DNA from: Candidatus Omnitrophota bacterium
GTDB taxonomy: Bacteria > Omnitrophota > Gorgyraeia > JAFGGP01
Assembly: GCA_016930485.1 (NCBI GenBank)
Contig: JAFGGP010000035.1
Coordinates: forward strand, 16,625-80,624
DNA: 64,000 bases
Direction of reading: 5' to 3'
The position numbers and the translations under genes were made by a program. The notes below the pieces were generated by a model. It made no database searches, had not been told where the DNA came from, and saw only the letters and a program-made list of their open reading frames with translations. Positions 23,910-44,097 of the stretch are shown here, in pieces (position 1 is the first letter of the stretch; each line of letters begins with the position of its first letter).

Positions 23910-23919
23910 AGACCACCGC

Positions 23920-25128: not shown

Positions 25129-25129
25129 C

Positions 25130-27114: not shown

Positions 27115-27726
27115 CTAGCGTTCCAGGGTCGTTATCCGACGGCACCGTGCACACAAAATCCTGATCCGGTCCGATCGCGCAGCTTCCCCGTCACCGGTAT
27201 CGGAAGGCGAAGAAACATGCCGCTCTCCTGTGGGATTGCGTAACATGGTAAGCATGAGAGTCGGATTGGAAAATAAGGCGGGCCCTATGCGTCTGGCAAT
27301 CCATCGAATGTGATCAAGCGGACCGATAACAGCACCGCACATCTCACACAGCAGCAGCTCTTTTTCTACCTCGCTAAAGGGTTCCTTCAGACTAATATTC
27401 GATAACTCATACTGATCCGTCAGTTTGATGCCTTCGGAGGTAATGCAGTTTCTTTCGCATTGACCGCAGAAAATACAGTTATCGGAAGCAACAACCAATC
27501 GTCTTACCGGAACCTCTCCCGATGTATCCTCTTCAATAGTAATATTGCCCCCCGGGCATACGATAGAACATGTCCCGCATCCCACGCACCCTGACTCATT
27601 GTATTCGGGCTTGCCTCGATATCCCTCGGGAACAGCGGGTATCGTCTTGGGGAAATCTATAGTGCACGGCCCCTTAATAAGTGCGCGTATAGCCTCTTTG
27701 AGTTCGCGCAGTTTCGGTTTTCTCAT
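27115..27726 (-). CDS. NuoI/MbhN/HycF-like 2x[4Fe-4S] ferredoxin subunit with a Cys-rich C-terminal extension
   Basis: CVGCGTCSIVCP and CIFCGQCERNC, plus an extra CEMCG...CARCRR in the last ~80 aa. Confidence 0.8.
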   Translation of the reverse strand: MRKPKLRELKEAIRALIKGPCTIDFPKTIPAVPEGYRGKPEYNESGCVGCGTCSIVCPGGNITIEEDTSGEVPVRRLVVASDNCIFCGQCERNCITSEGIKLTDQYELSNISLKEPFSEVEKELLLCEMCGAVIGPLDHIRWIARRIGPALFSNPTLMLTMLRNPTGERHVSSPSDTGDGEAARSDRIRILCARCRRITTLER

Positions 27727-28061
27727 CGCTCCTCTTCCTTTACGTGAGCCTTATACTGATCCACAACACTTCCCTCCCACAACTCAACCCCTGAAAGATA
27801 CGCCCCCTTTGAAATGGCATGGGCGGCAGTAGGGGATGTTACCAGAATAAAAATCATACAGAGAATCGCCTTCATGCTGATAGAACAAAAACCGTTCATA
27901 AAAACCACACCCATGAGAACCAGACTGGTCCCTAAGGTAACACACTTTGTCGATGCCTGAAGCCGATTGTAGATATCGGGAAGGCGCACCAATCCAACAC
28001 AACCAAAAAAGTTAAAAAGTATCCCGAGTGTAATCATAGAGAGGCCCACCGCGTTACTCAT
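27723..28061 (-). CDS. MrpG/MnhG-like antiporter subunit
   Basis: GLVRLPDIYNRLQASTKCVTLG. ATG 28061 is used because the track start at 28064 is TTG. Confidence 0.85.
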   Translation of the reverse strand: MSNAVGLSMITLGILFNFFGCVGLVRLPDIYNRLQASTKCVTLGTSLVLMGVVFMNGFCSISMKAILCMIFILVTSPTAAHAISKGAYLSGVELWEGSVVDQYKAHVKEEER

Positions 28062-28317
28062 CAAACCTCCTCCCCTGAAGATGCTTGGCCAAGGCGATCG
28101 TGCCGATAAAGCTCAACAGACTCCAGGCCAGCGCAATATTTAAATAAAAATCCTTTTTTGTCATTACCGAAAGAAGCGCGCAAAAACCGACCACGACGAT
28201 CCCGAGAATGTCAACCGCGACGGTCCTGTCGGGCGCCGAAGGGCCGCGGCCGATCCGGTAAAGACACATGAACGAACTGGCAAGCAGCATAAGAAAGAAA
28301 AAATAAAAAATGCCCAT
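28054..28317 (-). CDS. MrpF/MnhF-like antiporter subunit
   Basis: RIGRGPSAPDRTVAVDILG in an 87-aa three-TM protein. Confidence 0.85.
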   Translation of the reverse strand: MGIFYFFFLMLLASSFMCLYRIGRGPSAPDRTVAVDILGIVVVGFCALLSVMTKKDFYLNIALAWSLLSFIGTIALAKHLQGRRFDE

Positions 28318-28826
28318 TATTCGAAAATCCTCCTCAGTAAGGCCTCGAATTTTTTTACGATAATTTCGCTCGCTCGCTCTACATCCTCAGACTCTACATT
28401 AATCCAATGGATATACAGATAGCCGTTCTCCGTGATATCGACGGTAAGGGTCCCCGGAGTTAGTGTAATGGAATTTGCGAGGGCGGTCAAGGCAGAGTCG
28501 CTCTTTAGGGTCGTCTTGACCTTGACGATGCCGGGCCTGATCGGCATCTTTGGATGAAGAACCCGATAGACCACATCGATATTCGCCTTGATACAGTAAA
28601 AGGCAAAGACAGGGAGGTAGCATAGTATCCAAAAATACCTCTTAATATCATACCATTTATGGGGATGCGTAATAAGGATTTCGTGAAAAAGCCATGTTAC
28701 CAGCGCGCTGGCCAGTACCCCAAAGATAATAATCTGCATATCCAGTGTGCCTGAGGCGCCGTTGTACGGCCACACCAGCAAACACCACGTAACAAATGAA
28801 AAAATGAAAAGTGTTATAATTCTCAT
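28317..28826 (-). CDS. MrpE/MnhE-like antiporter subunit
   Basis: SITLTPGTLTVDI...LYIHWINV. Confidence 0.85.
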   Translation of the reverse strand: MRIITLFIFSFVTWCLLVWPYNGASGTLDMQIIIFGVLASALVTWLFHEILITHPHKWYDIKRYFWILCYLPVFAFYCIKANIDVVYRVLHPKMPIRPGIVKVKTTLKSDSALTALANSITLTPGTLTVDITENGYLYIHWINVESEDVERASEIIVKKFEALLRRIFE

Positions 28827-28829
28827 CGA

Positions 28830-30299
28830 TTATCCCTTTGATAGTATCCAGGCAGCATACTCTGTCCCGCGAAGCAGCGATGCCACGGCAGGATCGAGCA
28901 ACTGGGCCCTAACAGACGGCACCAGTAACAGTCCCATGCCGACGCACAAAAGTGCCAGTATCATCATGGAAAGACACATGCCTACCGGCACCTCGCGCAC
29001 ACCCTTATTGTGTTCCTTTAATTCGCCAAAGAAAGCAAACTTCTGGACCTTCAGAAATGAAGCAAGGGTCATCAGGCTGACAAATGCGGCCCACAGACCG
29101 AATATATAGTGCCCTGACTGCACACAGGCTATAATGATAATTAATTTGCTCCAGAATCCGTTTAAAGGCGGTATGCCGGCGATGGACATCGAGGCAACCA
29201 GGCTGGTAAAGCCGGTAACGGGCATTCTCTCTCTGAGCCCCCCCATTTCTTCAAGCTGTCTGGTATGGATATTGTACTCGACGGAGCCAGCGGTTAAAAA
29301 GAGAAGACCCTTAAAAACCGCGTGATTCATCAGATGGAATATGGCCCCCAGGATGCCCAATGGCGTCGCCAGTCCAAAACCGAGCATGACATAACCGATC
29401 TGACTGATGCTGTGATAGGCAAACAGCCGTTTCATGTCCCACTGGCCGATTGCCAGAAAAACGCCGATTACCATCGACGCCGTTCCAAAAAACAGCAGGA
29501 TATGCGACAGGACGGGCGTAAGGCCAAAGATATTAAATATAAGCCGGATGAGTGCATAGACTCCGATCGCCTTGATTAATACACCGGAGAGCATCGCGGA
29601 GATAGGCGCCGGCGCCGAAGGGTGCGCATCGGGAAGCCACGCGTGAAACGGTACAAGGGCCGCTTTAAGGCCGAACCCCAGGATAAAACAGGACGCCATA
29701 AAAATAAAGGTGCTTGAGTCGTGAGGCAGCCTGGCAGAGATATCGGCCATATTTAACGTACCCGTGAGGCTGTAGCCAACGGCCACCCCCAGGAGAATAA
29801 ACGTCGAGGCAACACTCCCCAATACCAGATACTTAAAGGAGGCCTCCAATTCGTCATGCTGACAGCCGAACCCAACCAGCGCGTAGGAGGCGATCGAGGC
29901 GATCTCCAAAAAGACATACAGATTAAAGAGGTCGCCGGAAAGGACCACGCCGTTCATTCCCGCAACCATCAGGAGAAACAGGCTGTAGTATCTCAACTTC
30001 GAGGTGTACTGCTCCATGTACTTTATGGAGAAAACCGTGGCACAGAAACTGATGCTATTGACCGTCACCAGCAAAAGAACGCTCCAGCCGTCAAGGGCCA
30101 TAGCGATGCCGACCGGCGGCTTCCACAGTCCCACCGTATATACAGCATTCCTTCCGATGACCCCCAGTGACATCACGCAGAGGATGAACGTCGTTACGTT
30201 TGCGAAGATATCAGAAAACACCCTGATTCTCTTTGAAAACATCGGTATCAAAAAGGCAGAGGCCAACGGAATGGCAACGAAAAGCGGAATAATACTCAC
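28830..30299 (-). CDS. MrpD/NuoN-like antiporter-type proton/sodium-translocating subunit
   Basis: A 489-aa polytopic protein with the Proton_antipo_M core (FHAWLPDAH, HSISQIGYV). The GTG start overlaps the upstream stop as GTGA. Confidence 0.88.
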   Translation of the reverse strand: MSIIPLFVAIPLASAFLIPMFSKRIRVFSDIFANVTTFILCVMSLGVIGRNAVYTVGLWKPPVGIAMALDGWSVLLLVTVNSISFCATVFSIKYMEQYTSKLRYYSLFLLMVAGMNGVVLSGDLFNLYVFLEIASIASYALVGFGCQHDELEASFKYLVLGSVASTFILLGVAVGYSLTGTLNMADISARLPHDSSTFIFMASCFILGFGLKAALVPFHAWLPDAHPSAPAPISAMLSGVLIKAIGVYALIRLIFNIFGLTPVLSHILLFFGTASMVIGVFLAIGQWDMKRLFAYHSISQIGYVMLGFGLATPLGILGAIFHLMNHAVFKGLLFLTAGSVEYNIHTRQLEEMGGLRERMPVTGFTSLVASMSIAGIPPLNGFWSKLIIIIACVQSGHYIFGLWAAFVSLMTLASFLKVQKFAFFGELKEHNKGVREVPVGMCLSMMILALLCVGMGLLLVPSVRAQLLDPAVASLLRGTEYAAWILSKG

Positions 30300-30643
30300 C
30301 CTCTCAACCTCCTTATCTGTGTTATATCAAAGGTCCCGTAACGCTCATAGAGCCTGATGCAGAGGGCCACCATAAGCGTCAGCACACCGAGTCCGATAAC
30401 AATAGAGGTCAATACCAGCGCCTGCGGGAGTGGGTCAACCGATGCGGCCGCAAAGGTCTTGGCATCGGTAGCCCCGTCGATAATCGGCGCGATACCGTCT
30501 TTTCTGTAGCCGATCAAGATCAGGAATAAATTAACGGCATACTCCATGATAGCCAAACCCAGTACAATCTTGACCAGGTTCTTCTTTACAACAACGCAGT
30601 AGAGACCAACCATGAATAAAACAAAACATAACGCGTAGATCAT
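30296..30643 (-). CDS. MrpC/NuoK-like subunit
   Basis: MIYALCFVLFMVGLYCVVVKKNLVKIVLGLAIMEYAVNLFL. The longer track ORF (to 30766) reads through a hairpin element and is rejected. Confidence 0.82.
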   Translation of the reverse strand: MIYALCFVLFMVGLYCVVVKKNLVKIVLGLAIMEYAVNLFLILIGYRKDGIAPIIDGATDAKTFAAASVDPLPQALVLTSIVIGLGVLTLMVALCIRLYERYGTFDITQIRRLRG

Positions 30644-30778
30644 TCCACTTTCCCTTGTCATCCCGGACCTGATCCGGGATCCATTTTTTCTTAGATTTCT
30701 AGATCCCGCGTCAAACGCGGGATAACATCCAGCCAACAGATGTATAAGCGCTCTTGCTTCATACATCTGGGCTTCATG
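30644..30778 (-). repeat. Intra-operon spacer carrying three stem-loops
   Basis: There are two 8-bp stems, 30660-30667/30673-30680 and 30703-30710/30716-30723. On the transcribed strand they read ATCCCGGA-TCAGG-TCCGGGAT and ATCCCGCG-TTTGA-CGCGGGAT. A third, 9-bp stem pairs 30737-30745 with 30761-30769. Confidence 0.7.
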
Positions 30779-31249
30779 TCATTTGTGCCGTATCATCTTC
30801 ATGGCATCGTCTTTCAGCACTACCTTGATGGCAGAGATGATAACAAATACCATAAAGAGCGACGCCCCCACCTTAATACCGATGGCGATATTATAAAGCA
30901 TGATATTGCCCGCACTGAGCAACCGGAAGGCCTCACCCGGATGAGACCGGTGCAGGAAATTCACAAAAAAGGCGCCGCCGCAGCACATACCTAAGAGCGC
31001 AATAGTCAGGAACATGAGGGCGCCTATACTGTCAAGCTCACTCGCCATATTTTTGCTCAACTTGCTTAAGGCCACCTCTTTCCCGAAGGCGAGCGTCAGC
31101 AGAATAAACGATGACGCAAGAATAACCCCTCCGGCAAATCCGCCCCCCGGACTGAGATGACCGGTGAGTACAATATAAATACCGAAAAGAAAAATGAACC
31201 CTTTAATCCACCGGGTTACAGTTTTAACAATCAGCGACATCCCCTTCAT
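30779..31249 (-). CDS. MnhB/MrpB-domain subunit
   Basis: LTGHLSPGGGFAGGVILASSFIL. Confidence 0.85.
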   Translation of the reverse strand: MKGMSLIVKTVTRWIKGFIFLFGIYIVLTGHLSPGGGFAGGVILASSFILLTLAFGKEVALSKLSKNMASELDSIGALMFLTIALLGMCCGGAFFVNFLHRSHPGEAFRLLSAGNIMLYNIAIGIKVGASLFMVFVIISAIKVVLKDDAMKMIRHK

Positions 31250-31253
31250 GGCT

Positions 31254-31799
31254 TTAATCCCTTACTTTTTTTCTGGACCTGATCCTGAGAATCGCCATCG
31301 CCCCCAGTATCGACGTAAAAAGGACTGTTGCCTCACCCAGGGTATCGTAGGCACGAAAATCCAGCAGGATGGCAGTGACGATATTGGCCGCACCGGTCTT
31401 GGCAAGTCCCTCTGTCAGATACACATTCGTGACCGCCCCCGGTGCCTTGGTAAAAAGAGGTGCCCCGAACTGCGGCAGCTCTCTCAGTACCTCCAGACCA
31501 AAGAGAAAGGCAACAAACAGTAACACCACCGTTGCAATCATCCCGAAAAATTCCCTGTCACCCGAGATAGTAGTCAGGTCACGGCTGATCGTGGCGCGTA
31601 TCAGAACCACCAAGCAGAGAATTTCAACCACGATCTGCGTAATGGCGATATCGGGCGCCTTGAGTAGCAGGAATATGATGCTCAAACCAAAACCCACCGC
31701 GCCCAGGGCAATAATCGCAGAAAGCAGGTCTCTCGTCTCAACAGCGACAAGGGCGCCGATAATACAGAAAATAAGGAGTAAAAAAATCAGTTCAAACAT
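31254..31799 (-). CDS. MbhD/MbhE-like subunit (MrpA C-terminal region, DUF4040-like)
   Basis: VETRDLLSAIIALGAVGFGLSIIFLLLKAPDIAITQIVVE. Confidence 0.75.
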   Translation of the reverse strand: MFELIFLLLIFCIIGALVAVETRDLLSAIIALGAVGFGLSIIFLLLKAPDIAITQIVVEILCLVVLIRATISRDLTTISGDREFFGMIATVVLLFVAFLFGLEVLRELPQFGAPLFTKAPGAVTNVYLTEGLAKTGAANIVTAILLDFRAYDTLGEATVLFTSILGAMAILRIRSRKKVRD

Positions 31800-31805
31800 G
31801 GTATA

Positions 31806-33623
31806 TCACCAAGTGTTTTTTCCCAAAATCCACAAAAGAAGTATCAGGCCAAAAACAACCCACGAGAGATATGTCGGCAGTACCCCCGTATGCATCTGAC
31901 GTAACAGCTCCGTCATATACGAAAAGGTGCGTTTTGCCTGCTCGTAGAGATCAAAGTACTTTTTTTCGGCACCGCGATATATTTTCTGTATCACGCCGAT
32001 CTCTTTGATCGTGTTATAAAAATCCGTCCCTGAGATAAATGAGGATTCCGGCAGTCTCTCTCCACCAATATACGTTCTATCGGTCCTGAAGAAACCCTTT
32101 TTGAGTGAAAGCGCCCCGTAGAGAAACATGCCCAATAAAAGACCTGTCCCGATATACAATCCTGCCTGAGAAGGCTCCCAGATACCAAGGTAGATATCGC
32201 TTCCGCCCAGAATGGGGTTAATCAGAAATCTGAGCGGGAGCTGTTTGGCGAAGATCCCGAATACGATGCACAGCGCCGCCAGAACCCCCATCGCCAAGAC
32301 CATGGCGCAATGCTCTCTCTGAGGGGCTTCGGCATATTCCGTTGTGCGTGCGCAATAGGCCGCATGTAACAACTTAATAAAACTTGCCAGGGTAAGCGCA
32401 CTGCCGAACATAGCGGCCATAAGCCAGAGCACCCACAGACGTCCGCCCCGCTGCCCCATCTCGACAATGCCCTGATACACCATCCACTTTGATACAAAAC
32501 CGTTAAAAGGAGGGATCCCGCTGATCGAAAGAGAACTGATAAGCGCGCAGACAAAGGTAGCGGGAATAATCTGGATAAGGCCTCCAAGGTGATCGAGGTC
32601 GGTGGTACCGGTCTTCTTTTCTACCGAACCGGCACTGAGAAATAATGTACACTTATAGATGGCATGGTTCAGCATATGAAACAGCCCGCCGGCGATGCCG
32701 ACCGGATTGCCCGTGCCGATCCCCAGGACCATGTAGCCGACCTGGCTGACCGCGTGATAACTCAGCAGTTTTTTCATATCATGCTGCATAAGCGCCATCA
32801 TGACCGCTGCAATAATCGTCACTGCGCCGGTAATGAGAAGCACAAGATGCGCAGCCTCGTTTAAAATAAAGACATCGAGACAACAACGTGCCAGAAGATA
32901 GATTCCCAGTAGTTTATCTAACGCGGCAGGGAGATAGGCCGTTACCGCAATCGGCGCAGATGCGGCACAGTCGGGTATCCAGGTATGAAGCGGCATGGCA
33001 CCTGCCTTGGCAAAGGCAGCCAGGACAAAAAAGATAAATGCCCAGAAGGTAAGCCCGCTGGTTATGGGGAGTTTAACTCCCAAAAGATCCCAGCTCCCTG
33101 CGGCCTGCCACACAATGGCCATTCCAAAAAGCAGGAAGGCGTCAGAGCCGCCGATAATAATAAAGGTTTTCTTGGCGGCTGCCGCAGCCCCGGACCCGCC
33201 ACCAATATGTATAAGGAGATAGAGGGTAAGCCCCAAAAACCCCCAGAAGAGCGCCAGTACGATCATGTGATTCGCCGCAAGAGCCCCGATAGAGGCAGCC
33301 AGCGTCCAGAGCACATAGACATAAAAACTCCGGTGATACACATGGTCTCTCATAAAACCGATTGAATACAGAATGATAATAAGGGTAAAAAACGTGACCC
33401 CTAATAACGCCAGACCGCTCAGGCCATCGATCACAAATGAAATACCGTACGCAAAGGTGCTCTCGATGGGGCGGACAAGAAAGAGTCTCACCGACCCCAG
33501 ACACGCCACCAGAGCGGTCACCCCGCTAACAGTCTCAATCAGCCCCCTTGCCCTCTTGGGAATAAGAAAGAGAAGGGTTCCAATAATAAACGGAAATGCC
33601 GTCAGTAGTGCTATATTATTCAT
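31806..33623 (-). CDS. MrpA/NuoL-like antiporter-type subunit
   Basis: A 605-aa polytopic protein with LHTWIPDCA, SYHAVSQVGYMV and FHMLNHAIYK. Confidence 0.88.
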   Translation of the reverse strand: MNNIALLTAFPFIIGTLLFLIPKRARGLIETVSGVTALVACLGSVRLFLVRPIESTFAYGISFVIDGLSGLALLGVTFFTLIIILYSIGFMRDHVYHRSFYVYVLWTLAASIGALAANHMIVLALFWGFLGLTLYLLIHIGGGSGAAAAAKKTFIIIGGSDAFLLFGMAIVWQAAGSWDLLGVKLPITSGLTFWAFIFFVLAAFAKAGAMPLHTWIPDCAASAPIAVTAYLPAALDKLLGIYLLARCCLDVFILNEAAHLVLLITGAVTIIAAVMMALMQHDMKKLLSYHAVSQVGYMVLGIGTGNPVGIAGGLFHMLNHAIYKCTLFLSAGSVEKKTGTTDLDHLGGLIQIIPATFVCALISSLSISGIPPFNGFVSKWMVYQGIVEMGQRGGRLWVLWLMAAMFGSALTLASFIKLLHAAYCARTTEYAEAPQREHCAMVLAMGVLAALCIVFGIFAKQLPLRFLINPILGGSDIYLGIWEPSQAGLYIGTGLLLGMFLYGALSLKKGFFRTDRTYIGGERLPESSFISGTDFYNTIKEIGVIQKIYRGAEKKYFDLYEQAKRTFSYMTELLRQMHTGVLPTYLSWVVFGLILLLWILGKNTW

Positions 33624-33634
33624 CGTCTAACACC

Positions 33635-34813
33635 CTAGAATTTCTTCTTCAGCTGCTGTGTCTTCTCCTGAGAAAGACGCACCAGATCAGACCAGTTATA
33701 GACCTTTTTTCTCGTCTTATAGTCCACCGCCTGCATCCTCTCGGTACAGCAGTAGCACGGGTCAACCGCGGCAAGGGTCAGCGTTGCGTCTGCAATGCTC
33801 TGCCCAACCGCCGATACCGCGTTCGTAGCGACGTTCATAAAACTCGGTGCCCGCACCTTGTAGCGCGCCGGGGTATTTGACCCGTCACTCCGCAGATAAT
33901 GATACACCTCGCCGCGCGGGGCCTCCGCCCTTCCGACCCCCTCGCCCGGCGGCATATCCTTAAGGGGCGTATCGTATGGTCCGTCGGGCATCCCGGTAAG
34001 CCCCTGCTTGATAATCCGTACTGATTCAAACATCTCAAGCACTCGGACAATTACCTTATCAAAGACATCGCCGTTCTCGGTAACAATCATATCAAAATCG
34101 ACCTTGTCATAGGCAAAATAAGGGTCGTCCTTCCGCACATCAATAGCAACGCCTGAGGCGCGTGCGGTCGGCCCCACGGCGGAAAAAGTGATAACATCCT
34201 CCCGGGTCAGGATACCCACACCCTTAAGCCGCGCATGGAGCACCGGGTCATCCAGGACAGCGCCGCGAAACATCTCCAGGCTTCGCTCAAGTTCACCGAG
34301 TTCGTTTATGATCTTAGGCACTTCCTCTTTCTTGATATCCCGCCGGATACCGCCCGGTTTAAACATCGCGTAACTCTGCCTGTTGCCGGTAATGCGCTCG
34401 AAGATGTCCAAAACGATCTCCCGGTACTTCCAGGCCCACATAAATACCGTATTATATCCGATGAAGTGCCCCGCAAGACCAAGCCACAGCATATGTGAAT
34501 GAATCCTCTCAAGCTCTGCGATGATCATCCTGATATACTGCGCCCGCAGGGGTGCGGTGACGCGCGCGCAGTCCTCGATGCAGTTCACGCTCGCCGACGG
34601 ATGCGAAATCGAACAGATGCCGCAGATGCGCTCCACAACAAAGACCACCTGGTCAAACGTCCTCATTTCGCAGAGCTTCTCTATACCCCGGTGGTTATAG
34701 CCGATAATGATATCGATGTCCACGACACGCTCACCGTCGACATGCAGCTGAAAAAATTCAGGCTCTTCCTGAAGCGGATGGTATGGTCCTACCGGTATGA
34801 TCTTCTTACTCAT
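33635..34813 (-). CDS. [NiFe]-hydrogenase large subunit, group 4 (MbhL/EchE/NuoD family)
   Basis: GPYHP, GYNHRGIEK, and the N-terminal Ni-Fe ligands RICGICSISH. The C-terminal ligands are DPCYCCTER, followed by a 33-aa tail. ATG 34813 has a GGAGG SD. Confidence 0.9.
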   Translation of the reverse strand: MSKKIIPVGPYHPLQEEPEFFQLHVDGERVVDIDIIIGYNHRGIEKLCEMRTFDQVVFVVERICGICSISHPSASVNCIEDCARVTAPLRAQYIRMIIAELERIHSHMLWLGLAGHFIGYNTVFMWAWKYREIVLDIFERITGNRQSYAMFKPGGIRRDIKKEEVPKIINELGELERSLEMFRGAVLDDPVLHARLKGVGILTREDVITFSAVGPTARASGVAIDVRKDDPYFAYDKVDFDMIVTENGDVFDKVIVRVLEMFESVRIIKQGLTGMPDGPYDTPLKDMPPGEGVGRAEAPRGEVYHYLRSDGSNTPARYKVRAPSFMNVATNAVSAVGQSIADATLTLAAVDPCYCCTERMQAVDYKTRKKVYNWSDLVRLSQEKTQQLKKKF

Positions 34814-35255
34814 TCGGATACCTCCGTAACGGGTAGTCTCCTTCAGGCCAGTCGTCGTCAAGCAAAAGATGTTTCAGATTCGGATGATGCAAAAAAGTGA
34901 TCCCTAAAAGTTCGTGTATCTCGCGCTCTACCCACTCGGCGGCACGGAAAAGCTGCGCCAAAGACTCCACCTCCAGGGCTGGCTTGGCGATCTGTACCTT
35001 CATGGACAGAACGCAGCCGATGCCGTCGAAGGAAAAGTGATACACAATCTCCATGGCATCTCGCATATCTACCCCTGATGCGGTGCAAAAACGCGCCCCC
35101 TTTTCGAAAAAAAGATACCGTGCCACTTCAAGGAGATCGCCCTTCTCTATCCGGATATATACCCGGCGCCCAGAAATCTGATCCCACTGGGTAACTTTCG
35201 CCGAAAGGCGTTCACGCACCTCGGTCAGTATATCCTGAGAAGCTGTATTGCTCAT
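34806..35255 (-). CDS. NuoC/MbhK-like subunit
   Basis: AEWVEREIHELLGITFLHHPNLKHLLL. Confidence 0.85.
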   Translation of the reverse strand: MSNTASQDILTEVRERLSAKVTQWDQISGRRVYIRIEKGDLLEVARYLFFEKGARFCTASGVDMRDAMEIVYHFSFDGIGCVLSMKVQIAKPALEVESLAQLFRAAEWVEREIHELLGITFLHHPNLKHLLLDDDWPEGDYPLRRYPNE

Positions 35256-35686
35256 CGATTCTTCCTCTTTTCATCAAGTTTGCCGAGTGCCTTGACAATA
35301 CCCGCGATTAAGGCCTCGGGTTTTGGCGGACAACCGGGGATATAGACATCAACCGGGATGGTCTTGCTGACCGGTGTATCGGTATTATATGAGTCCCTGA
35401 AGAAATGACCGCCGCACGAACAGGTGCCGCACGCCACGACAGCACAGGGCCGGGGCGCCTGTTCATAGAGCACCTTTACCCGCTTCACAGACTTTTTATT
35501 CATAGAGCCGGTAATTAAGATAATGTCCGCATGCCGGATACTCCCTACCAGCATCACCCCAAACCGTTCGACGTCAAACCGGGGCGTGAGGCAGTCGATG
35601 ATCTCGATATCACAGTTATTGCATGAACCCGTTGATAGGTGAAAAACCCACGGTGATTTTGTGAGCGCCTTCTTCAGGAATGACAT
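35252..35686 (-). CDS. NuoB/MbhJ-like hydrogenase small subunit
   Basis: GSCNNCDIE...GTCSCGG...IPGCPPKPE, the ligands of the proximal [4Fe-4S] cluster. Confidence 0.9.
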   Translation of the reverse strand: MSFLKKALTKSPWVFHLSTGSCNNCDIEIIDCLTPRFDVERFGVMLVGSIRHADIILITGSMNKKSVKRVKVLYEQAPRPCAVVACGTCSCGGHFFRDSYNTDTPVSKTIPVDVYIPGCPPKPEALIAGIVKALGKLDEKRKNR

Positions 35687-35687
35687 A

Positions 35688-36617
35688 TCACAACCCCGCC
35701 AATGTCAAAAGAATTGAGATAACCGCCAATACAGTAACCGGCCCCCAGAAAAACCGGAGTGCCTGGTCGATCCGGAGTCGCGGATTGGTATTTTTGATAA
35801 GGACAGCGACCAGTAAAATAACCAGTAATTTACCCAGGCCTACCGCCGCACCGAGGGCCCCCGGAGCAATCCCCCCCCAGAAGACCGTGATTAGAAAGAC
35901 CGGCATGGCAAAAAGCATCATTAGCTTTGAGAGTCTGAAAAAACCCAGCGGCGCCCCCGAGTATTCGACCAACGGCCCCCCCATAATCTCGGTTTCGGCC
36001 TCGGCGATATCAAAGGGAACCAGACCGAGCTTTGCCTGCATGCACAACAGGGCAACGATAAAGGCGATAAAACCGGACGGTGAGCCAATAATCGCCCCAT
36101 GGGCCGCCTGATGCTGCACCATCTCGTAGAGTCTAATGGTATATCCGTTTTTGATGATAACCGTTGCAATGCTGACGATAAAAGGAAGTTCATAGGCAAG
36201 CATTAGCTTCATCTCCCGGGATGCGCCGAGCGAGGCAAGCGGATTGCGGCTTGCCATCCCCCCGATAATCAAGGCGAGTGCCGGAATCATCGAAAGGTAG
36301 ATAGCGACAATGAGGTCGCCTAAAAAGCCGGAATCTGTCCGGAGATTCGGCTGCCAGAGCACCACCGAAAGCAATGTCGCCCCGATAACGGCGGTAACCG
36401 GCGCAAAGAGAAACAGTCCCCTCATGGAATCAGCAGGCACGATAATCTCTTTTCCGAGAAGCTTTAAGAAATCAACAAAATTCTGATACCACGGAGGACC
36501 AACCCGCCAGTGGATACGGGCCGTCAGTTTTCTGTCAAACCAGCCACTCAGGCACCCCATGGCAGCGGTAAAGAGAAATCCCGGAAAAATAAGAAAGTAA
36601 AAAATGCCTTTTATCAT
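35688..36617 (-). CDS. NuoH/MbhM/HycD-like membrane subunit
   Basis: RKLTARIHWRVGPPWYQNFVDFLKLLGKE, and AEAETEIMGGPLVEYSG. Confidence 0.9.
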   Translation of the reverse strand: MIKGIFYFLIFPGFLFTAAMGCLSGWFDRKLTARIHWRVGPPWYQNFVDFLKLLGKEIIVPADSMRGLFLFAPVTAVIGATLLSVVLWQPNLRTDSGFLGDLIVAIYLSMIPALALIIGGMASRNPLASLGASREMKLMLAYELPFIVSIATVIIKNGYTIRLYEMVQHQAAHGAIIGSPSGFIAFIVALLCMQAKLGLVPFDIAEAETEIMGGPLVEYSGAPLGFFRLSKLMMLFAMPVFLITVFWGGIAPGALGAAVGLGKLLVILLVAVLIKNTNPRLRIDQALRFFWGPVTVLAVISILLTLAGL

Positions 36618-36629
36618 AATGACGTCTGG

Positions 36630-37124
36630 TTACTTTTTTGCCTCATTACGTTCCCAGTGCAGTGTCGAGCGAATGACCAGGTGCTCGCCAATGCCGTAGA
36701 AGGCCTTTTCTTCATTTGGTTCGATTTCACAAAACTGAATAGCGCCGTACGGACACGTCCTCACGCACAGCGGGTCTTTGTCCTGACACCGGTCGACGCA
36801 AAAATCACATGTTGAAACAGTGAACGGCAACAGCTCCGGCAGAATAGTCCCGAACGGACAGGCAAGTGAGCACGACTTGCAGCTCACGCAGCGCATGCTG
36901 TACCTCCTGAGAACACCATCCTGACCTCTCTCAAGGGCCTCGACCGGACACGCCTGAACACAGCTGCCCACCTCGCACCGTCTGCACACCACCAGATACC
37001 CGGCCAGTTCCCGCAACCGGCAGACACCGTCATTGAAGGGATGATAGTAATAACTGCACTTTACCGGGCACGCATCCGGGCACCTGTCGCATTTATCAAG
37101 GTCTATAAAAAGACGCTTCATCAC
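36630..37124 (-). CDS. Multi-cluster 4Fe-4S ferredoxin (164 aa)
   Basis: Several CxxCxxCxxxCP-type motifs (CRRCEVGSCVQACP, CVSCKSCSLACP, CDFCVDRCQDKDPLCVRTCP). Confidence 0.8.
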   Translation of the reverse strand: MMKRLFIDLDKCDRCPDACPVKCSYYYHPFNDGVCRLRELAGYLVVCRRCEVGSCVQACPVEALERGQDGVLRRYSMRCVSCKSCSLACPFGTILPELLPFTVSTCDFCVDRCQDKDPLCVRTCPYGAIQFCEIEPNEEKAFYGIGEHLVIRSTLHWERNEAKK

Positions 37125-37945
37125 TCCCAGACCCCCCTGAAATCCTTTATCATGTCATAGCGCATAACCGGGCCGTCCTCACATACGTAATACGTGCCTA
37201 ACCGGCAATGGCCGCATTTGCCAAGACCGCAGCTCATGTTTTTTTCCATAGAAAGGTAGATATCGGCCGGGGTATAACCGATCTCAAGCAGCTTGAGCGT
37301 TGTAAACTTCATCATGATGGGAGGACCGCAGACAACCGCCTTACTGTTTTTTAAATCCAGCCTGAGTGCGTCCAGCAGCTTCGTCACCAGCCCCACATTC
37401 CCCTTCCAGGACTCATTGCCCTTATCGACCGTCAGCACATAATCAACCTTTTCTTTCTTCTGCCACTCATCGATGTGATACTTGTATACAATGTCCTCGG
37501 GGGTACGCGCCCCGTAGCGTAAAATAATTTTTTTATACTGCTCTATCTCAGCGAATAACGTCAATAACAGCGACCGTAAGGGGGCAAGACCAACGCCGCC
37601 TCCTACGATCAGGACTTCCCTTCCCTTTAATTCATCCACCGCATACGCCGTCCCGTACGGGCCCCGCACGCCCACCTCATCGCCTTCGACCATGGCATGC
37701 AGCCGTTTCGTCGCACATCCCACCGCCATTATCGTAATCTCCATGGTCTCTGAAATGCTGGGTGAGGAGGAAGGGGTAAAAGGTGCCTCTCCGGCACCGG
37801 GGACGGTCAGCTCGACAAACTGACCTGTTTTAAAGGTGATAGGTGTTTCGGGCCTCACTACAAATGTCTTAATAGTAGGCGTTTCGGTGATAATCTTTTC
37901 TATCTTTGCCCTTATGGGATAATAGGGGTTATTTATTGAGCTCAT
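37121..37945 (-). CDS. Sulfhydrogenase gamma / AsrB-like FAD-NAD(P)-binding 2Fe-2S oxidoreductase
   Basis: GQFVELTVPGAGEAPFTPSS, VGGGVGLAPLRSL, CGPPIMMKF, and a C-terminal CGLGKCGHCRLG. Confidence 0.82.
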   Translation of the reverse strand: MSSINNPYYPIRAKIEKIITETPTIKTFVVRPETPITFKTGQFVELTVPGAGEAPFTPSSSPSISETMEITIMAVGCATKRLHAMVEGDEVGVRGPYGTAYAVDELKGREVLIVGGGVGLAPLRSLLLTLFAEIEQYKKIILRYGARTPEDIVYKYHIDEWQKKEKVDYVLTVDKGNESWKGNVGLVTKLLDALRLDLKNSKAVVCGPPIMMKFTTLKLLEIGYTPADIYLSMEKNMSCGLGKCGHCRLGTYYVCEDGPVMRYDMIKDFRGVWE

Positions 37946-38963
37946 TGGCGACCTTCCGGATATCGATGCCTCCTATGCACGCCTCGACACACCTGCCGCA
38001 TCCGGTGCAGGCATATACATCTAAAATATCCTTATAAAAATTAAACTTGCAGATATAGCGGTGCCGCAGCCGCTCGGCAAGCATCTGGCGGGCATTGCCG
38101 CCTCCGGCTACCCTGGCATACCGTTTATACTGGCAGGAATCCCAGTTTTTTTCGCGCGTCCATACCTTCTGCTTGTCGTCCGAAAAAAAGAAACAGTGGC
38201 AGGAAGGGCAGGTAAAATTACACGCACCGCACTCGACACATCTTTCGGCCTCTCTTTCCCATATCTCAGAATCAAAATTATCGCGAATAACCCGTTCGTG
38301 ATCGAGGCCCGGGGTAAAACCCTGTTCTCTCATTTGCTTATTAAGACCCTCGATTGTCTTTTTTCTATTCGCCTCCCGCTGGTCCAGCTGCGCCTGTGTT
38401 GGTTCGGCCAGAAATTTCTTAACCTTGCCGATCAGCTCCTGACCCTTGTCGGTGGCCGTCTCAAACAGATAACCACCGGATATTGGGGAGATATTAACAT
38501 CAAAACCCTCTTCCGGAAAAGGGTTCAACCCAACCCACGTGCAAAAGCAAACATCCTTATAACCGCTGCAGTCACTGCTGACAAAAACTGTTGCTTCCCG
38601 AAAGGCCTTATAAAACGGGTCCTCGCAGACACCTGAAAGAAATACATGGTCCAACACCTTGATTGACCGCAGGTCACACGCTTTAACCCCAATAATAACA
38701 GTCTTTTTCTGATTTTCTTTTGAAGCCGGCTGCTCTCCTTCTTCTTCCCCGCAGACAACCTCCTTCACAGGAAATAAAAACATCTTTGCCGGTTCGATGG
38801 CTCGGTAGGCATTAAAGATAAGGGACTCAAAATCGGTCTTTTTATCCACCGGGCTCATGGAATAATCGTCGCCTGAACATACAGGATGCAAAAGACGACA
38901 CTCCTCGGAAAGGCGCTCCCAGAGCTGCGGATAATCAGGCTGTGTAACGAAGTGCATAGTCAT
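37929..38963 (-). CDS. Sulfhydrogenase beta / AsrA-like 4Fe-4S protein
   Basis: CVECGACNFTCPSCHCFF and CTGCGRCVEACIGGIDI. Confidence 0.8.
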   Translation of the reverse strand: MTMHFVTQPDYPQLWERLSEECRLLHPVCSGDDYSMSPVDKKTDFESLIFNAYRAIEPAKMFLFPVKEVVCGEEEGEQPASKENQKKTVIIGVKACDLRSIKVLDHVFLSGVCEDPFYKAFREATVFVSSDCSGYKDVCFCTWVGLNPFPEEGFDVNISPISGGYLFETATDKGQELIGKVKKFLAEPTQAQLDQREANRKKTIEGLNKQMREQGFTPGLDHERVIRDNFDSEIWEREAERCVECGACNFTCPSCHCFFFSDDKQKVWTREKNWDSCQYKRYARVAGGGNARQMLAERLRHRYICKFNFYKDILDVYACTGCGRCVEACIGGIDIRKVANELNK

Positions 38964-39159: not shown

Positions 39160-39188
39160 ATTATATGTAAAGGACAAAAAATAATCAA
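39160..39188 (-). promoter_or_regulatory. Sigma70-like promoter, TTGATT-N17-TATAAT
   Basis: On the minus strand the -35 is at 39188-39183 and a perfect TATAAT is at 39165-39160. The element begins 8 nt after the hypE stop. Confidence 0.45.
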
Positions 39189-44080: not shown

Positions 44081-44097
44081 CCAAACGTTAGTAACGG

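What the first reader, a model, noticed from the sequence alone, without database searches (positions are those of the whole stretch)
27115..38963. Hybrid operon: a sulfhydrogenase-type beta/gamma NAD(P)H module and polyferredoxin joined to an Mrp-Mbh (group 4) [NiFe]-hydrogenase
Seen: 16 co-directional minus-strand genes run from 38963 down to 27115. They are joined by overlaps or gaps of at most 12 nt (17-nt overlap at 37929-37945, ATGA overlap at 37121-37124, 12-nt gap at 36618-36629, 1-nt gap at 35687). The one exception is a 135-nt hairpin spacer.

The first three genes are:
- a HydB/AsrA-like Fe-S protein (CVECGACNFTCPSCHC, CTGCGRCVEAC)
- a HydG/AsrB-like flavoprotein (FAD/NAD(P) fold, C-terminal CGLGKCGHCRLG)
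- a 164-aa multi-cluster ferredoxin

These run straight into NuoH-, NuoB- and NuoC-like genes and a NuoD-family large subunit. That subunit keeps both Ni-Fe ligand pairs (RICGICSISH; DPCYCCTER plus a 33-aa tail), so it is a protease-processed true hydrogenase rather than Mbx/Mbs or complex I. A full Mrp set with two antiporter-like pumps (605 and 489 aa) follows.

Established: in Pyrococcus the beta/gamma pair is the NAD(P)H-oxidoreductase half of the soluble group 3b sulfhydrogenase. Mbh-type group 4 enzymes instead take electrons from ferredoxin.

Inference: this cluster could encode a membrane-bound, ion-translocating NAD(P)H:H+ (or H2:NAD(P)+) oxidoreductase. I am not aware of a characterised enzyme with this subunit set, but I cannot search databases here.
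Basis: partly seen in the sequence, partly recalled or inferred. Interest (0 to 1): 0.8.

Follow-up and report, generated by a model that had tools for sequence, protein, structure and literature searches.

The report
Hun-type membrane hydrogenase operon (known kind)
This is a real 16-gene operon for a membrane-bound, ion-pumping nickel-iron hydrogenase with an extra NAD(P)H-type flavoprotein module, but the same operon was already named "Hun" in 2021 and occurs in many uncultured anaerobes; what feeds it electrons has never been measured.

Summary
Sixteen tightly packed minus-strand genes (38963 to 27115) encode, in order:
- SHI-beta/AsrA-like and SHI-gamma/AsrB-like proteins;
- a HycB/CooF-like four-cluster ferredoxin;
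- NuoH, NuoB and NuoC homologues, and a NuoD-type [NiFe] large subunit with both ligand pairs and a 33-aa tail;
- a full Mrp set;
- a NuoI/HycF-like subunit.

The operon is flanked by hypFCDE upstream and hycI-hypA-pta-ackA downstream.

The arrangement is not a one-off hybrid. All 80 best relatives among species-representative genomes share the gene order wherever the contig extends far enough (NuoD-type gene 46/46). They come from Omnitrophota, Planctomycetota, Auribacterota, Latescibacterota, Atribacterota and other phyla.

It matches the 16-subunit "Hun" complex (HunA-P) of Glass et al. 2021, including the HunG signature CGIC...CYCC. Related "Mbh-Mrp-oxidoreductase" clusters were noted in 2019, 2020 and 2026. 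None has been characterised biochemically. Published readings differ: ferredoxin-fed, or NADPH-linked.

The flavoprotein's FAD, NAD(P) and [2Fe-2S] motifs are essentially invariant in 76 relatives. I therefore favour a reversible NAD(P)H-linked, ion-coupled hydrogenase, at moderate confidence.

Verdict: a new member of a known, uncharacterised kind, of moderate interest.

The parts
37929..38963 (-). hunA: SHI-beta/ShyB/AsrA-like Fe-S protein (344 aa; public gene aa)
   Evidence: Pfam Fer4_22 E = 1.7e-25. NCBIfam ShyB 177.9, HydB 151.2 and AsrA 136.4 bits, all below the cut-offs. PDB 9nez_B E = 2e-42. 15 Cys are invariant in 22 relatives.
37121..37945 (-). hunB: SHI-gamma/AsrB-like flavoprotein with FAD, NAD(P) and [2Fe-2S] sites (274 aa)
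   Evidence: Pfam FAD_binding_6, NAD_binding_1 and DHODB_Fe-S_bind. PDB 9nez_C E = 2e-51. The motifs GEAPFTPSS and GGGxGxxPxR, the 4 cluster Cys, and R/K147 are kept in 73-76 of 76 relatives.
36630..37124 (-). hunC: HycB/CooF/DmsB-type polyferredoxin with 16 Cys in four cluster motifs (163-164 aa)
   Evidence: Pfam Fer4_11. NCBIfam DmsB, HydN and HybA-like. PDB matches AorA 8c0z_C, FdnH 1kqf_B, HycB4 7qv7_B and HycB 7z0s_B.
35688..36617 (-). hunD: NuoH/MbhM-like membrane anchor (309 aa)
   Evidence: Pfam NADHdh E = 7e-65.
35252..35686 (-). hunE: NuoB/MbhJ-like hydrogenase small subunit (144 aa)
   Evidence: Pfam Oxidored_q6 E = 1.5e-28.
34806..35255 (-). hunF: NuoC/MbhK-like subunit (149 aa)
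   Evidence: Pfam Complex1_30kDa E = 5e-24.
33635..34813 (-). hunG: group 4 [NiFe] large subunit (392 aa); L1 motif RICGICSISH, L2 motif DPCYCCTER, 33-aa C-terminal tail
   Evidence: Pfam Complex1_49kDa and NiFeSe_Hases. PDB MbhL 6cfw_L E = 1e-86 and HycE 7z0s_E E = 4e-79. The L2 motif DPCYCCTER is found in 54 of 55 relatives. The same CGIC...CYCC signature is reported for HunG.
31806..33623 (-). hunH: antiporter-like subunit of MrpA-N/NuoL/MbhH type (605 aa)
   Evidence: Pfam Proton_antipo_M E = 2e-55. NCBIfam PRK08668 match over the full length.
31254..31799 (-). hunI: MbhD+MbhE fusion, corresponding to the C-terminal part of MrpA (181 aa)
   Evidence: Pfam MbhD and MbhE.
30779..31249 (-). 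hunJ: MnhB/MrpB-like subunit (156 aa)
   Evidence: Pfam MnhB E = 1.4e-25.
30644..30778 (-). Structured 135-nt intra-operon spacer with two look-alike 8-bp hairpins (30660-30680 and 30703-30723)
   Evidence: RNA fold MFE -56.3 kcal/mol, z = -6.2. The hairpin pattern occurs 2 times against 0.01 expected. No Rfam match. Absent at this junction in relatives.
30296..30643 (-). hunK: MrpC/NuoK-like subunit (115 aa counted from Met42 of the longest ORF)
   Evidence: Pfam Oxidored_q2 match starts at residue 42. Homologues are 112-115 aa.
28830..30299 (-). hunL: MrpD-like antiporter subunit (489 aa)
   Evidence: Pfam Proton_antipo_M E = 1e-71. NCBIfam MrpD families.
28317..28826 (-). hunM: MrpE/MnhE-like subunit (169 aa)
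   Evidence: Pfam MNHE E = 1.3e-41.
28054..28317 (-). hunN: MrpF-like subunit (87 aa)
   Evidence: Pfam MrpF_PhaF.
27723..28064 (-). hunO: MrpG-like subunit (113 aa)
   Evidence: Pfam PhaG_MnhG_YufB.
27115..27726 (-). hunP: NuoI/HycF/MbhN-like 2x[4Fe-4S] subunit with a Cys-bearing C-terminal extension (203 aa)
   Evidence: NCBIfam formate hydrogenlyase Fe-S subunit E = 7e-25. PDB HycF 7z0s_F E = 2e-17 and MbhN 6cfw_N. The CxxC...CxxC pair is conserved in relatives.
26589..27110 (-). hycI-type maturation endopeptidase, 4 nt after hunP
   Evidence: Pfam HycI E = 4e-10. The same position is occupied in relatives L001, L002 and L067.
26149..26511 (-). hypA nickel metallochaperone
   Evidence: Pfam HypA E = 1e-23.
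23920..26149 (-). pta (25130-26149) and ackA (23920-25173), coupled to hypA by a 1-nt overlap
   Evidence: Pfam PTA_PTB E = 8e-112 and Acetate_kinase E = 2.5e-151. Coordinates.
39160..39188 (-). Best sigma-70-like match in the region (TTGATT-17-TATAAT), lying in the 232-nt hypE-hunA gap
   Evidence: This is a consensus match only. The total number of promoter-like sites in the region does not exceed that in shuffled controls.
39196..44544 (-). Upstream genes: rrf2-family regulator (44098-44544), hypF (41684-44080), hypC (41475-41723), hypD (40390-41478), hypE (39196-40218)
   Evidence: Pfam Rrf2, HypF domains, HupF_HypC, HypD and AIRS/AIRS_C.

Best explanation
The region is a hun operon (hunA-P) of an uncultured Omnitrophota bacterium. 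It encodes a Hun-type complex.

Architecture, inferred from homology:
- A group 4 [NiFe] hydrogenase core (HunD, E, F, G and P, equivalent to NuoH, B, C, D and I) sits on a complete Mrp-type ion-translocation module (HunH-O) that has two antiporter-like subunits.
- The cytoplasmic arm is lengthened by a three-protein electron module. HunP (HycF-like) contacts HunC (a HycB/CooF-like four-cluster ferredoxin). HunC contacts HunA (SHI-beta-like, several [4Fe-4S] clusters). HunA contacts HunB (SHI-gamma-like, [2Fe-2S] plus FAD plus an NAD(P) site).
- This is the plug-in logic of formate hydrogenlyase and of the CO-dependent Mbh. A SHI-type NAD(P)H oxidoreductase takes the place of FdhF or CooS.

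Most likely working, inferred and not shown:
- Electrons pass reversibly between NAD(P)H at HunB and H+/H2 at HunG. The reaction is coupled to H+/Na+ movement through the Mrp module.
- NAD(P)H -> H2 is uphill by about 18 kJ/mol under standard conditions (E0' -320 versus -414 mV). The ion module would therefore either be driven by the reaction or drive it. The first applies at low H2 with a reduced NADPH pool, or in the H2-uptake direction. The second applies when the ion gradient pulls H2 evolution.
- The co-directional hycI-hypA-pta-ackA tail points to a fermentative, H2-evolving, acetate-forming setting in this organism.

Identification as a Hun family member is near certain (about 0.95). 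NAD(P)H as a physiological partner I put at about 0.5-0.6.
For: - Gene identities come from Pfam, NCBIfam and PDB searches.
- Hydrogenase competence: both CxxC pairs, a 33-aa tail, hycI and hypABCDEF-type genes are present.
- Linkage is conserved. Among the 80 best relatives in species-representative genomes, hunB follows hunA in 68/68 loci with enough DNA. The figures for later genes are hunC 61/61, NuoH 58/58, NuoD 46/46 and MrpD 38/40. Six further metagenome contigs show the same order.
- The operon matches the published 16-subunit Hun operon and its CGIC...CYCC signature.
- HunB cofactor and nucleotide motifs are under strict selection. GEAPFTPSS, GGGxGxxPxR and the four [2Fe-2S] Cys are present in 73-76 of 76 relatives. 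A basic residue (R55/K21) follows beta-strand 2 in all 76, as in the aligned TARYGK of NADPH-using SHI gamma.
- An independent 2026 in-silico study reads SHI-beta/gamma homologues in group 4b clusters as an NADP(H) site.
- No FdhF, CooS or other catalytic donor gene lies in the 64-kb window.
Against: - There is no biochemical, transcript or structural data for any Hun complex in the searched literature.
- Glass et al. interpret HunABC as accepting electrons from ferredoxin.
- HydDB places HunG-type subunits in group 4g, which is nominally ferredoxin-coupled.
- HunA and HunB score well below the NCBIfam cut-offs for SHI, SHII and Asr subunits, so they are not equivalogs and could have diverged in function.
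- NAD(P)H-driven H2 evolution is thermodynamically unfavourable unless H2 is kept very low or the ion gradient is spent.
- Physical association of HunABC with the membrane core is inferred only from conserved gene order and analogy with FHL. No multimer model was possible with these tools.
- NADPH-versus-NADH preference rests on a single conserved basic position.
Confidence: 0.55

Rival explanations
1. Ferredoxin-only Mbh (the published Hun reading). Reduced ferredoxin from pyruvate or 2-oxoacid oxidation donates to HunABC or HunP. Protons are reduced at HunG and ions are pumped. HunB's nucleotide site is vestigial or regulatory.
For: - This is the interpretation of Glass et al..
- HydDB group 4g is predicted to be ferredoxin-coupled.
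- The closest solved enzyme, P. furiosus MBH (6cfw), is ferredoxin-dependent.
- Fd -> H2 is exergonic and fits an ion-pumping module.
- pta-ackA lie next door, which implies an acetyl-CoA/PFOR-type metabolism.
Against: - MBH needs only MbhN to accept ferredoxin. Three extra conserved subunits, including a complete FNR-type FAD/NAD(P) fold, would be superfluous.
- HunB's FAD, NAD(P) and [2Fe-2S] motifs are essentially invariant across 76 relatives from many phyla, which argues against a vestigial site.
- Its nearest solved homologue is the NADPH-binding subunit of SHI.
Confidence: 0.2
2. Dual-partner machine. The iron-sulfur chain branches, so that reduced ferredoxin (entering at HunC/HunP) and NAD(P)(H) (at HunB) both connect to the [NiFe] site. 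The complex then works either as a confurcation-like Fd + NAD(P)H -> H2 enzyme or as a switch between Fd:H+ and Fd:NAD(P)+ oxidoreductase activities. The ion module balances the energetics.
For: - A 2026 AlphaFold3-based analysis of related group 4b clusters with SHI-beta/gamma homologues proposed a branched chain and bifurcation/confurcation.
- HunC is a four-cluster connector of the HycB/CooF type. In HDCR and FHL this type links several partners.
- This reading solves the thermodynamic problem of NAD(P)H -> H2.
- Some relatives insert a molybdopterin-like protein between hunB and hunC (L080).
Against: - No recognisable bifurcating flavin is present. HunB belongs to the PyrK/NfnA/SHI-gamma class, whose FAD is not the bifurcating one in Nfn (established knowledge, not tested here).
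- The window's operon lacks the third (Fdh-like) branch seen in those group 4b clusters.
- Nothing in the sequence marks a ferredoxin docking site.
Confidence: 0.2
3. HunAB is a reductase for a different acceptor (sulfur/polysulfide, sulfite-like or another small molecule). H2 or ferredoxin electrons would then be passed outward to that acceptor rather than to or from NAD(P).
For: - Homology to sulfhydrogenase beta/gamma and to AsrA/AsrB.
- SHI has in-vitro sulfur reductase activity (cited).
- HunA keeps more invariant Cys than three cubane clusters need.
Against: - There is no AsrC-like siroheme subunit or other catalytic acceptor subunit in the operon.
- Scores are below the Asr and Shy cut-offs.
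- The NAD(P) domain is conserved.
Confidence: 0.04
4. hunABC and the Mbh-Mrp genes are merely neighbours. They encode a separate soluble NAD(P)H:ferredoxin-type oxidoreductase and an ordinary Mbh.
For: Physical association has not been shown. Occasional insertions occur between hunB and hunC in relatives: a TPR protein, a 23S-IVP gene and a molybdopterin-like gene.
Against: - Junctions in the window are overlaps or gaps of at most 12 nt.
- Gene order is invariant across more than 10 phyla, 58/58 through NuoH and 46/46 through NuoD.
- Short Mrp-less forms still keep hunABC fused to the core (L001, L002, L067).
Confidence: 0.02

Closest known systems
Hun complex (HunA-P), the 'Ni-Fe hydrogenase-Na+/H+ antiporter supercomplex' of Atribacteria and other deep-biosphere bacteria (Glass et al., bioRxiv 10.1101/536078)
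   Same: - 16 genes in the same order.
- HunAB are AsrA/B-like and HunC is a ferredoxin.
- HunD is NuoH-like; HunE, F, G and P correspond to NuoB, C, D and I; HunH-O are Mrp-like.
- HunG has the CGIC...CYCC ligand signature.
- The complex was reported in Omnitrophica MAGs. The window itself comes from an Omnitrophica MAG.
   Different: - The window's proteins are only about 35-47% (HunA) and 58-76% (HunG) identical to the other members sampled.
- The L1 motif reads SISH instead of the usual STSH.
- A structured 135-nt spacer interrupts hunJ-hunK.
- pta-ackA are appended downstream.
- My functional reading (NAD(P)H) differs from the published one (ferredoxin).
Pyrococcus furiosus membrane-bound hydrogenase MBH (PDB 6CFW), HydDB group 4d
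   Same: - It is the best solved match for the large subunit (E = 1e-86), and MbhN is homologous to HunP.
- It has the same core plus an Mrp-derived Na+/H+ module.
- It undergoes protease-processed [NiFe] maturation.
   Different: - MBH has 14 subunits, one antiporter-like subunit and no SHI-beta/gamma-like or HycB-like subunits.
- It takes electrons directly from ferredoxin.
- It comes from an archaeal hyperthermophile.
Pyrococcus furiosus soluble hydrogenase I (SHI, group 3b; PDB 9NEZ), beta and gamma subunits
   Same: - HunA and HunB are clear homologues (E = 2e-42 and 2e-51) over nearly their full length.
- They share the Cys motifs, the FAD/NAD(P) fold and the C-terminal [2Fe-2S] motif.
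   Different: - No group 3 alpha or delta subunits are present.
- Scores are far below the NCBIfam equivalog cut-offs (178 versus 690 bits; 181 versus 600 bits).
- Here the pair is attached to a membrane-bound group 4 enzyme through an extra polyferredoxin.
Formate hydrogenlyase (E. coli FHL-1, PDB 7Z0S) and the Thermococcus onnurineus formate- and CO-dependent Mrp-Mbh complexes (groups 4a/4b/4c)
   Same: - They share the modular logic: a soluble donor module is wired through a HycB/CooF-type polyferredoxin to HycF/NuoI-like, HycG/NuoB-like and HycE/NuoD-like subunits.
- HycE is the second-best solved match for the large subunit, and HycF is the best match for HunP.
   Different: The donor module here is a flavoprotein/Fe-S pair instead of a molybdopterin formate dehydrogenase or a CODH. 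No such catalytic gene is in the window.
'Mbh-Mrp-oxidoreductase' clusters of Saganbacteria/Elusimicrobia and group 4b clusters with SHI-beta/gamma plus Cys-less Fdh-like proteins (PMC6349859; 10.1101/765248; PMC13582414)
   Same: AsrA/B-like (SHI-beta/gamma-like) genes and a CooF-like gene lie next to a group 4 hydrogenase with Mrp subunits. The function is stated to be unknown or is speculated to involve NADP(H).
   Different: Those clusters also carry a molybdopterin-oxidoreductase-like protein, which the window lacks. A truncated one is present in relative L080. They are classed as 4b rather than 4g.

Membership tests
Hun complex (Glass et al. 2021) | 16 co-directional genes in the order AsrA-like, AsrB-like, ferredoxin, NuoH, NuoB, NuoC, NuoD, eight Mrp-type genes, NuoI | tested here: met
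   Searches give exactly this order. The subunit roles described map one-to-one: HunEFGP hold the Ni-Fe site, HunD/H/I/L/K form the P-module and HunI-O form the Na-module.
Hun complex (Glass et al. 2021) | HunG metal-site signature CGIC (L1) and CYCC (L2), unlike CxxC elsewhere in group 4 | tested here: met
   The window has RICGICSISH and DPCYCCTER. 54 of 55 relatives have DPCYCCTER.
Hun complex (Glass et al. 2021) | Orthology with loci from the taxa in which Hun was defined (Atribacteria, Omnitrophica and others) | tested here: met
   Atribacterota locus L035 and many Omnitrophota loci have the same order, with HunG 62-67% identical.
Hun complex (Glass et al. 2021) | HunG is classified by HydDB as group 4g but forms its own clade | not testable with these tools
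   HydDB and its reference set are not available here. Indirect evidence: the Ca. Tritonobacter lacicola MAG carries a hun locus (L018; HunG 65% identical to the window's). The only Mbh-Mrp cluster the Ace Lake paper describes for that species is called group 4g, though I did not confirm it is the same locus.
Group 4 energy-converting [NiFe] hydrogenase (Mrp-Mbh type) | NuoD-type large subunit that retains both CxxC Ni-Fe ligand pairs | tested here: met
Group 4 energy-converting [NiFe] hydrogenase (Mrp-Mbh type) | C-terminal extension, a dedicated endopeptidase and Hyp maturation genes | tested here: met
   A 33-aa tail follows DPCYCCTER. hycI and hypA lie downstream and hypFCDE upstream. Cleavage itself was not tested.
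Group 4 energy-converting [NiFe] hydrogenase (Mrp-Mbh type) | NuoB, NuoC, NuoH and NuoI homologues plus Mrp-derived membrane subunits | tested here: met
Group 4 energy-converting [NiFe] hydrogenase (Mrp-Mbh type) | Ferredoxin as electron donor and ion translocation | not testable with these tools
   This needs enzyme and vesicle assays.
Group 3b sulfhydrogenase (SHI/SHII) | Beta and gamma subunits that are equivalogs of HydB/ShyB and HydG/ShyC | tested here: not met
   They are homologous (9nez E = 2e-42 and 2e-51). NCBIfam scores of 151-178 and 178-181 bits fall far below the cut-offs of 600-750.
Group 3b sulfhydrogenase (SHI/SHII) | Group 3 alpha (large) and delta (small) hydrogenase subunits in the same operon | tested here: not met
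   The only hydrogenase subunits in the operon are NuoD-type and NuoB-type.
Anaerobic sulfite reductase AsrABC | AsrC siroheme catalytic subunit, with AsrA and AsrB scoring above their cut-offs | tested here: not met
   No AsrC-like gene is in the operon. AsrA scores 136 versus a cut-off of 323 bits, and AsrB 229 versus 288.6 bits.
Formate hydrogenlyase / CO-dependent Mbh (groups 4a-c) | Catalytic FdhF-type or CooS-type donor subunit encoded with the hydrogenase | tested here: not met
   There are no molybdopterin or CODH genes in the operon, nor among the 30 larger flanking ORFs scanned on either side of it (11148-25173 and 39196-54769).
Formate hydrogenlyase / CO-dependent Mbh (groups 4a-c) | HycB/CooF-type polyferredoxin connector and a HycF-type subunit | tested here: met
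   HunC matches HycB4, HycB3 and HycB. HunP's best solved match is HycF.
Complex I / Mbx / Mbs / Ehr (non-hydrogenase relatives) | Loss of the Ni-Fe cysteine ligands in the NuoD-type subunit | tested here: not met
   All four ligand cysteines are present, so the complex is not one of these.

The most novel reading that the evidence does not exclude
Hun is a previously uncharacterised bioenergetic coupling site: a Na+/H+-translocating NAD(P)H:H+ oxidoreductase (an H2:NAD(P)+ oxidoreductase in reverse), possibly with ferredoxin as a second partner. It would link the pyridine-nucleotide pool directly to H2 through the membrane potential in Omnitrophota, Planctomycetota, Atribacterota and many other uncultured anaerobes. 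This would be an alternative to electron-confurcating [FeFe] hydrogenases for disposing of NAD(P)H as H2.
Probability: 0.45. Interest if true: 0.7.

Novelty: new member of a known kind. Interest (0 to 1): 0.35.

Why it matters
If Hun really couples NAD(P)H (alone or with ferredoxin) to H2 through an ion gradient, it would be a new way for fermenters and syntrophs to re-oxidise pyridine nucleotides. It would also be a new entry in the modular family of complex I relatives.

The family is widespread. At least 246 species-representative genomes encode a HunA relative, and the best 80 all share the Hun gene order as far as their contigs reach. They span more than 10 mostly uncultured phyla from sediments, lakes, groundwater and digesters. 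Its donor specificity therefore affects how H2 budgets and energy yields are inferred from metagenomes. Such hydrogenases are currently entered as 'ferredoxin-dependent group 4g Mbh'.

For this particular window the finding adds one more divergent member. It also shows an unusually explicit link to pta-ackA. It does not add a new kind of system.

Tried and rejected
- An exact-sequence look-up of the 344-aa HunA found nothing, because public gene calls start 2 residues later. The 342-aa form sits on a 7.5-kb Logan contig (SRR13394437) with identical gene calls.
- Formate- or CO-linked Mbh was considered and rejected. No FdhF, CooS or molybdopterin gene lies in the operon or in the flanks scanned.
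- Mbx/Mbs/Ehr/complex I was considered and rejected on the Ni-Fe ligands, hycI and the hyp genes.
- A displaced group 3b sulfhydrogenase or an Asr operon was considered and rejected. There are no alpha/delta or AsrC subunits, and scores are below the cut-offs.
- The spacer 30644-30778 gave no Rfam match at E <= 1. Its hairpin motif occurs nowhere else in the window, and relatives lack it. Its role is unexplained.
- Literature searches for expression or biochemical data on Kosmotoga hun genes found nothing useful.
- A search for later uses of the name Hun found only the original paper.
- The SHI structure paper (PubMed 40570843) is not held. NADPH-contact residues could therefore not be mapped, and I used only the general FNR-family rule about a basic residue after beta-strand 2.
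- The JBC review on complex I-like complexes does not mention an NAD(P)H-linked Mbh.
- No multimer modelling tool was available, so the HunB-A-C-P wiring was not modelled. HydDB classification could not be run.

Full report
**Observation**

The ORF map shows 16 co-directional minus-strand genes from 38963 down to 27115.
- A 17-nt overlap lies at 37929-37945, a 12-nt gap at 36618-36629 and a 1-nt gap at 35687.
- The 'ATGA' junction at 37121-37124 actually reads GTGATGA. The ferredoxin gene therefore starts either at GTG 37124 or at ATG 37121. A public gene call on an identical contig uses the ATG.
- The '135-nt hairpin spacer' is 30644-30778. It exists if the MrpC-like gene starts at Met42 of the longest ORF. 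The Pfam match begins there, and homologues are 112-115 aa.
- The spacer folds at -56.3 kcal/mol against -33.3 ± 3.7 for shuffled sequences, z = -6.2. It holds two look-alike 8-bp hairpins and has no Rfam match.

**Gene identities**

- Gene 1 is a Fer4_22 protein homologous to P. furiosus SHI beta (9nez_B, E = 2e-42).
- Gene 2 has FAD_binding_6, NAD_binding_1 and the PyrK-type [2Fe-2S] domain. It matches SHI gamma (9nez_C, E = 2e-51).
- Both score far below the NCBIfam cut-offs for ShyB/HydB/AsrA and ShyC/HydG/AsrB. They are relatives, not equivalogs.
- Gene 3 is a 16-Cys HycB/CooF/DmsB-type polyferredoxin.
- Genes 4-7 are NuoH, NuoB, NuoC and NuoD homologues.
- The large subunit's best solved matches are MbhL (6cfw_L, E = 1e-86) and HycE (7z0s_E, E = 4e-79). 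It carries RICGICSISH and DPCYCCTER followed by a 33-residue tail.
- Genes 8-15 are a complete split Mrp set: a 605-aa MrpA-N/NuoL-like protein, an MbhD+MbhE fusion, MrpB, MrpC, a 489-aa MrpD, MrpE, MrpF and MrpG.
- Gene 16 is a NuoI/HycF-like two-cluster protein.

**Surroundings**

- Downstream on the same strand lie hycI (4-nt gap), hypA, and then pta and ackA. The pta start overlaps the hypA stop by one base.
- Upstream lie hypE, hypD, hypC, hypF and an Rrf2-family regulator.
- The 232-nt hypE-hunA gap holds the best sigma-70-like match of the region. This is a consensus match only.
- No formate dehydrogenase, CODH or other catalytic donor gene occurs in the operon or among the larger flanking ORFs I scanned.
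- The window's Obg protein is 100% identical to one from an NCBI 'Candidatus Omnitrophica bacterium' MAG on a 92-kb contig. The next-best Obg is 48% identical.

**Conservation**

The HunA-like protein has one identical and one 78%-identical relative in public data. All other relatives are at most 47% identical.
- Six relatives on long contigs all show the same neighbourhood.
- A scan of one genome per GTDB species found at least 246 loci encoding a relative. The best 80 were kept, and all are MAGs or SAGs.
- They come from Omnitrophota, Planctomycetota/Brocadiia, Auribacterota, Latescibacterota, Fermentibacteria, Hydrogenedentota, Kiritimatiellia, Caldisericota, Atribacterota and other groups.
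- I ran tblastn with the window's proteins against these loci. Wherever enough downstream DNA exists, the same order holds: hunB 68/68, hunC 61/61, NuoH 58/58, NuoD 46/46, MrpD 38/40.
- A few loci are short forms without the Mrp block, with hunG followed directly by hunP and hycI. These are L001, L002/L007 and L067.
- Some loci insert a gene between hunB and hunC: a TPR/zinc-ribbon protein in Auribacterota, a truncated molybdopterin-oxidoreductase-like protein in L080, or a 23S-IVP gene in L074.
- The L2 motif DPCYCCTER is present in 54 of 55 complete large subunits, with tails of 31-50 residues.

**What is already known**

- This is the Hun operon. Glass et al. (bioRxiv 10.1101/536078) described a 16-subunit 'Hun' Ni-Fe hydrogenase-Na+/H+ antiporter supercomplex.
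- They found it in Atribacteria and Firmicutes MAGs, in Omnitrophica, Elusimicrobia and Bacteroidetes MAGs, and in cultured Kosmotoga.
- Their subunit scheme is HunAB = AsrA/B-like, HunC = ferredoxin, HunEFGP = the Ni-Fe module and HunH-O = Mrp-like.
- They also reported a distinctive HunG CGIC...CYCC signature, a HydDB call of group 4g, and an occasional molybdopterin-domain gene between hunB and hunC. The window matches each sequence feature.
- They assumed that ferredoxin feeds HunABC.
- Matheus Carnevali et al. (PMC6349859) called a Saganbacteria cluster with asrA, asrB, cooF and a molybdopterin protein 'enigmatic'.
- Méheust et al. (10.1101/765248) speak of an 'Mbh-Mrp-oxidoreductase type' of unknown function.
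- A 2026 study (PMC13582414) notes SHI-beta/gamma homologues in group 4b clusters and suggests NADP(H)-linked bifurcation or confurcation from AlphaFold3 models.
- Ace Lake and Omnitrophota surveys list group 4g, Mrp-linked hydrogenases in these phyla as ferredoxin-dependent or redox-balancing Mbh. One of the MAGs concerned is the Ca. Tritonobacter lacicola MAG that carries hun locus L018.
- I found no biochemical characterisation.

**Mechanism**

What is shown is gene content, homology and very strong synteny. What is inferred is the wiring and the substrate.
- By analogy with FHL (7Z0S) and the formate- and CO-dependent Mrp-Mbh complexes, HunC should bridge HunP to a donor module. That module here is HunA-HunB, the same pair that forms the NADPH-oxidising end of SHI.
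- HunB's FAD motif (GEAPFTPSS), nucleotide motif (GGGxGxxPxR), four [2Fe-2S] cysteines and a basic residue after beta-strand 2 (R in 55, K in 21 of 76) are essentially invariant. This argues for a working pyridine-nucleotide site, perhaps one that prefers NADPH.
- NAD(P)H -> H2 costs about +18 kJ/mol under standard conditions (established redox potentials). The Mrp module would then be the energetic buffer. It would pump ions when H2 is low or when running H2 -> NAD(P)+. It would consume the gradient to push H2 out.
- The pta-ackA tail suggests a fermentative, H2-evolving role here.
- I put about 0.95 on 'member of the Hun family' and about 0.5-0.6 on NAD(P)H as a physiological partner.
- Ferredoxin-only and dual-partner (Fd + NAD(P)H) readings each get about 0.2.

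**Verdict**

The arrangement is an already named, widespread but biochemically uncharacterised kind, and the window holds a divergent new member. The NAD(P)H hypothesis is reasonable and worth testing. It is neither new to the field (2026 paper) nor settled. Interest is moderate at 0.35.

Noticed in passing
window 30644-30778 (minus strand): A strongly structured 135-nt spacer lies inside the operon between the MrpB-like and MrpC-like genes. It holds two look-alike hairpins of the form ATCCCGSR..YSCGGGAT. It has no Rfam match, does not recur elsewhere in the window, and is absent at this junction in relatives. It could be an RNA processing or stability element, or a small inserted repeat.
   Followed up: partly
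window 23920-26511: pta and ackA follow hycI-hypA on the same strand, and the pta start overlaps the hypA stop at 26149. Acetate-forming substrate-level phosphorylation genes therefore appear to be co-transcribed with the hydrogenase. The relatives inspected do not show this tail.
   Followed up: partly
window 27115-27726 (HunP residues 127-130 and 192-195): The NuoI/HycF-like subunit has a C-terminal extension of about 60 aa with CxxC...CxxC. The motif is conserved in the 5 relatives that reach this gene. It may be an extra metal site or a docking element for HunC.
   Followed up: partly
L001 12020-12781; L002 12276-13031; L003 11966-12721: The Auribacterota-type hun loci L001 and L002, and the closely similar locus L003 (taxon not stated), carry a 251-253-aa gene between hunB and hunC. 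The L001 and L003 copies were scanned and are zinc-ribbon plus TPR proteins. Such a gene is odd inside a redox operon.
   Followed up: partly
L080 4850-6301: A Latescibacterota hun locus has a 483-aa truncated molybdopterin-oxidoreductase-like gene (Molybdop_Fe4S4 plus a weak Molybdopterin match) between hunB and hunC. This links Hun to the Fdh-like 'Mbh-Mrp-oxidoreductase' clusters.
   Followed up: partly
L005 13265-14279: CbiM and PDGLE (Ni/Co uptake) genes are inserted inside a hun operon between the NuoH-like and NuoB-like genes.
   Followed up: no
L001, L002/L007, L067: These are short Hun variants that lack the whole Mrp block. The large-subunit gene is followed directly by the NuoI-like gene and hycI, yet hunABC is retained. 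L030, L037 and L058 have an extra MrpD-like gene after the large subunit.
   Followed up: partly
window 33635-34813 (HunG L1 motif): The window's L1 motif is RICGICSISH. Of 60 relatives, 47 have STSH, 9 have SSSH and 1 has SNSH. An Ile at this position was seen only here.
   Followed up: no
window 16443-17459: Obg is 100% identical to a protein of an NCBI 'Candidatus Omnitrophica bacterium' MAG on a 92-kb contig, and the next-best Obg is only 48% identical. The host is therefore a deep-branching lineage.
   Followed up: partly
window 44098-44544: An Rrf2-family (Fe-S or redox-sensing) regulator lies immediately upstream of hypF on the same strand. It is a candidate regulator of the hyp-hun region.
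   Followed up: no
window 45510-47825 and 50794-53490: One gene encodes a 771-aa protein that combines a PilZ domain with two CBM48/AMPK glycogen-binding modules. Another encodes an 898-aa CHASE2-adenylate/guanylate cyclase. Together with glgC at 22626-23909 (plus strand), these hint at glycogen-linked signalling.
   Followed up: no
window 18001-24000: GC content drops to 0.44-0.45 here, against about 0.50-0.55 elsewhere. The stretch holds RNase E/G and the pilM/pilO genes.
   Followed up: no
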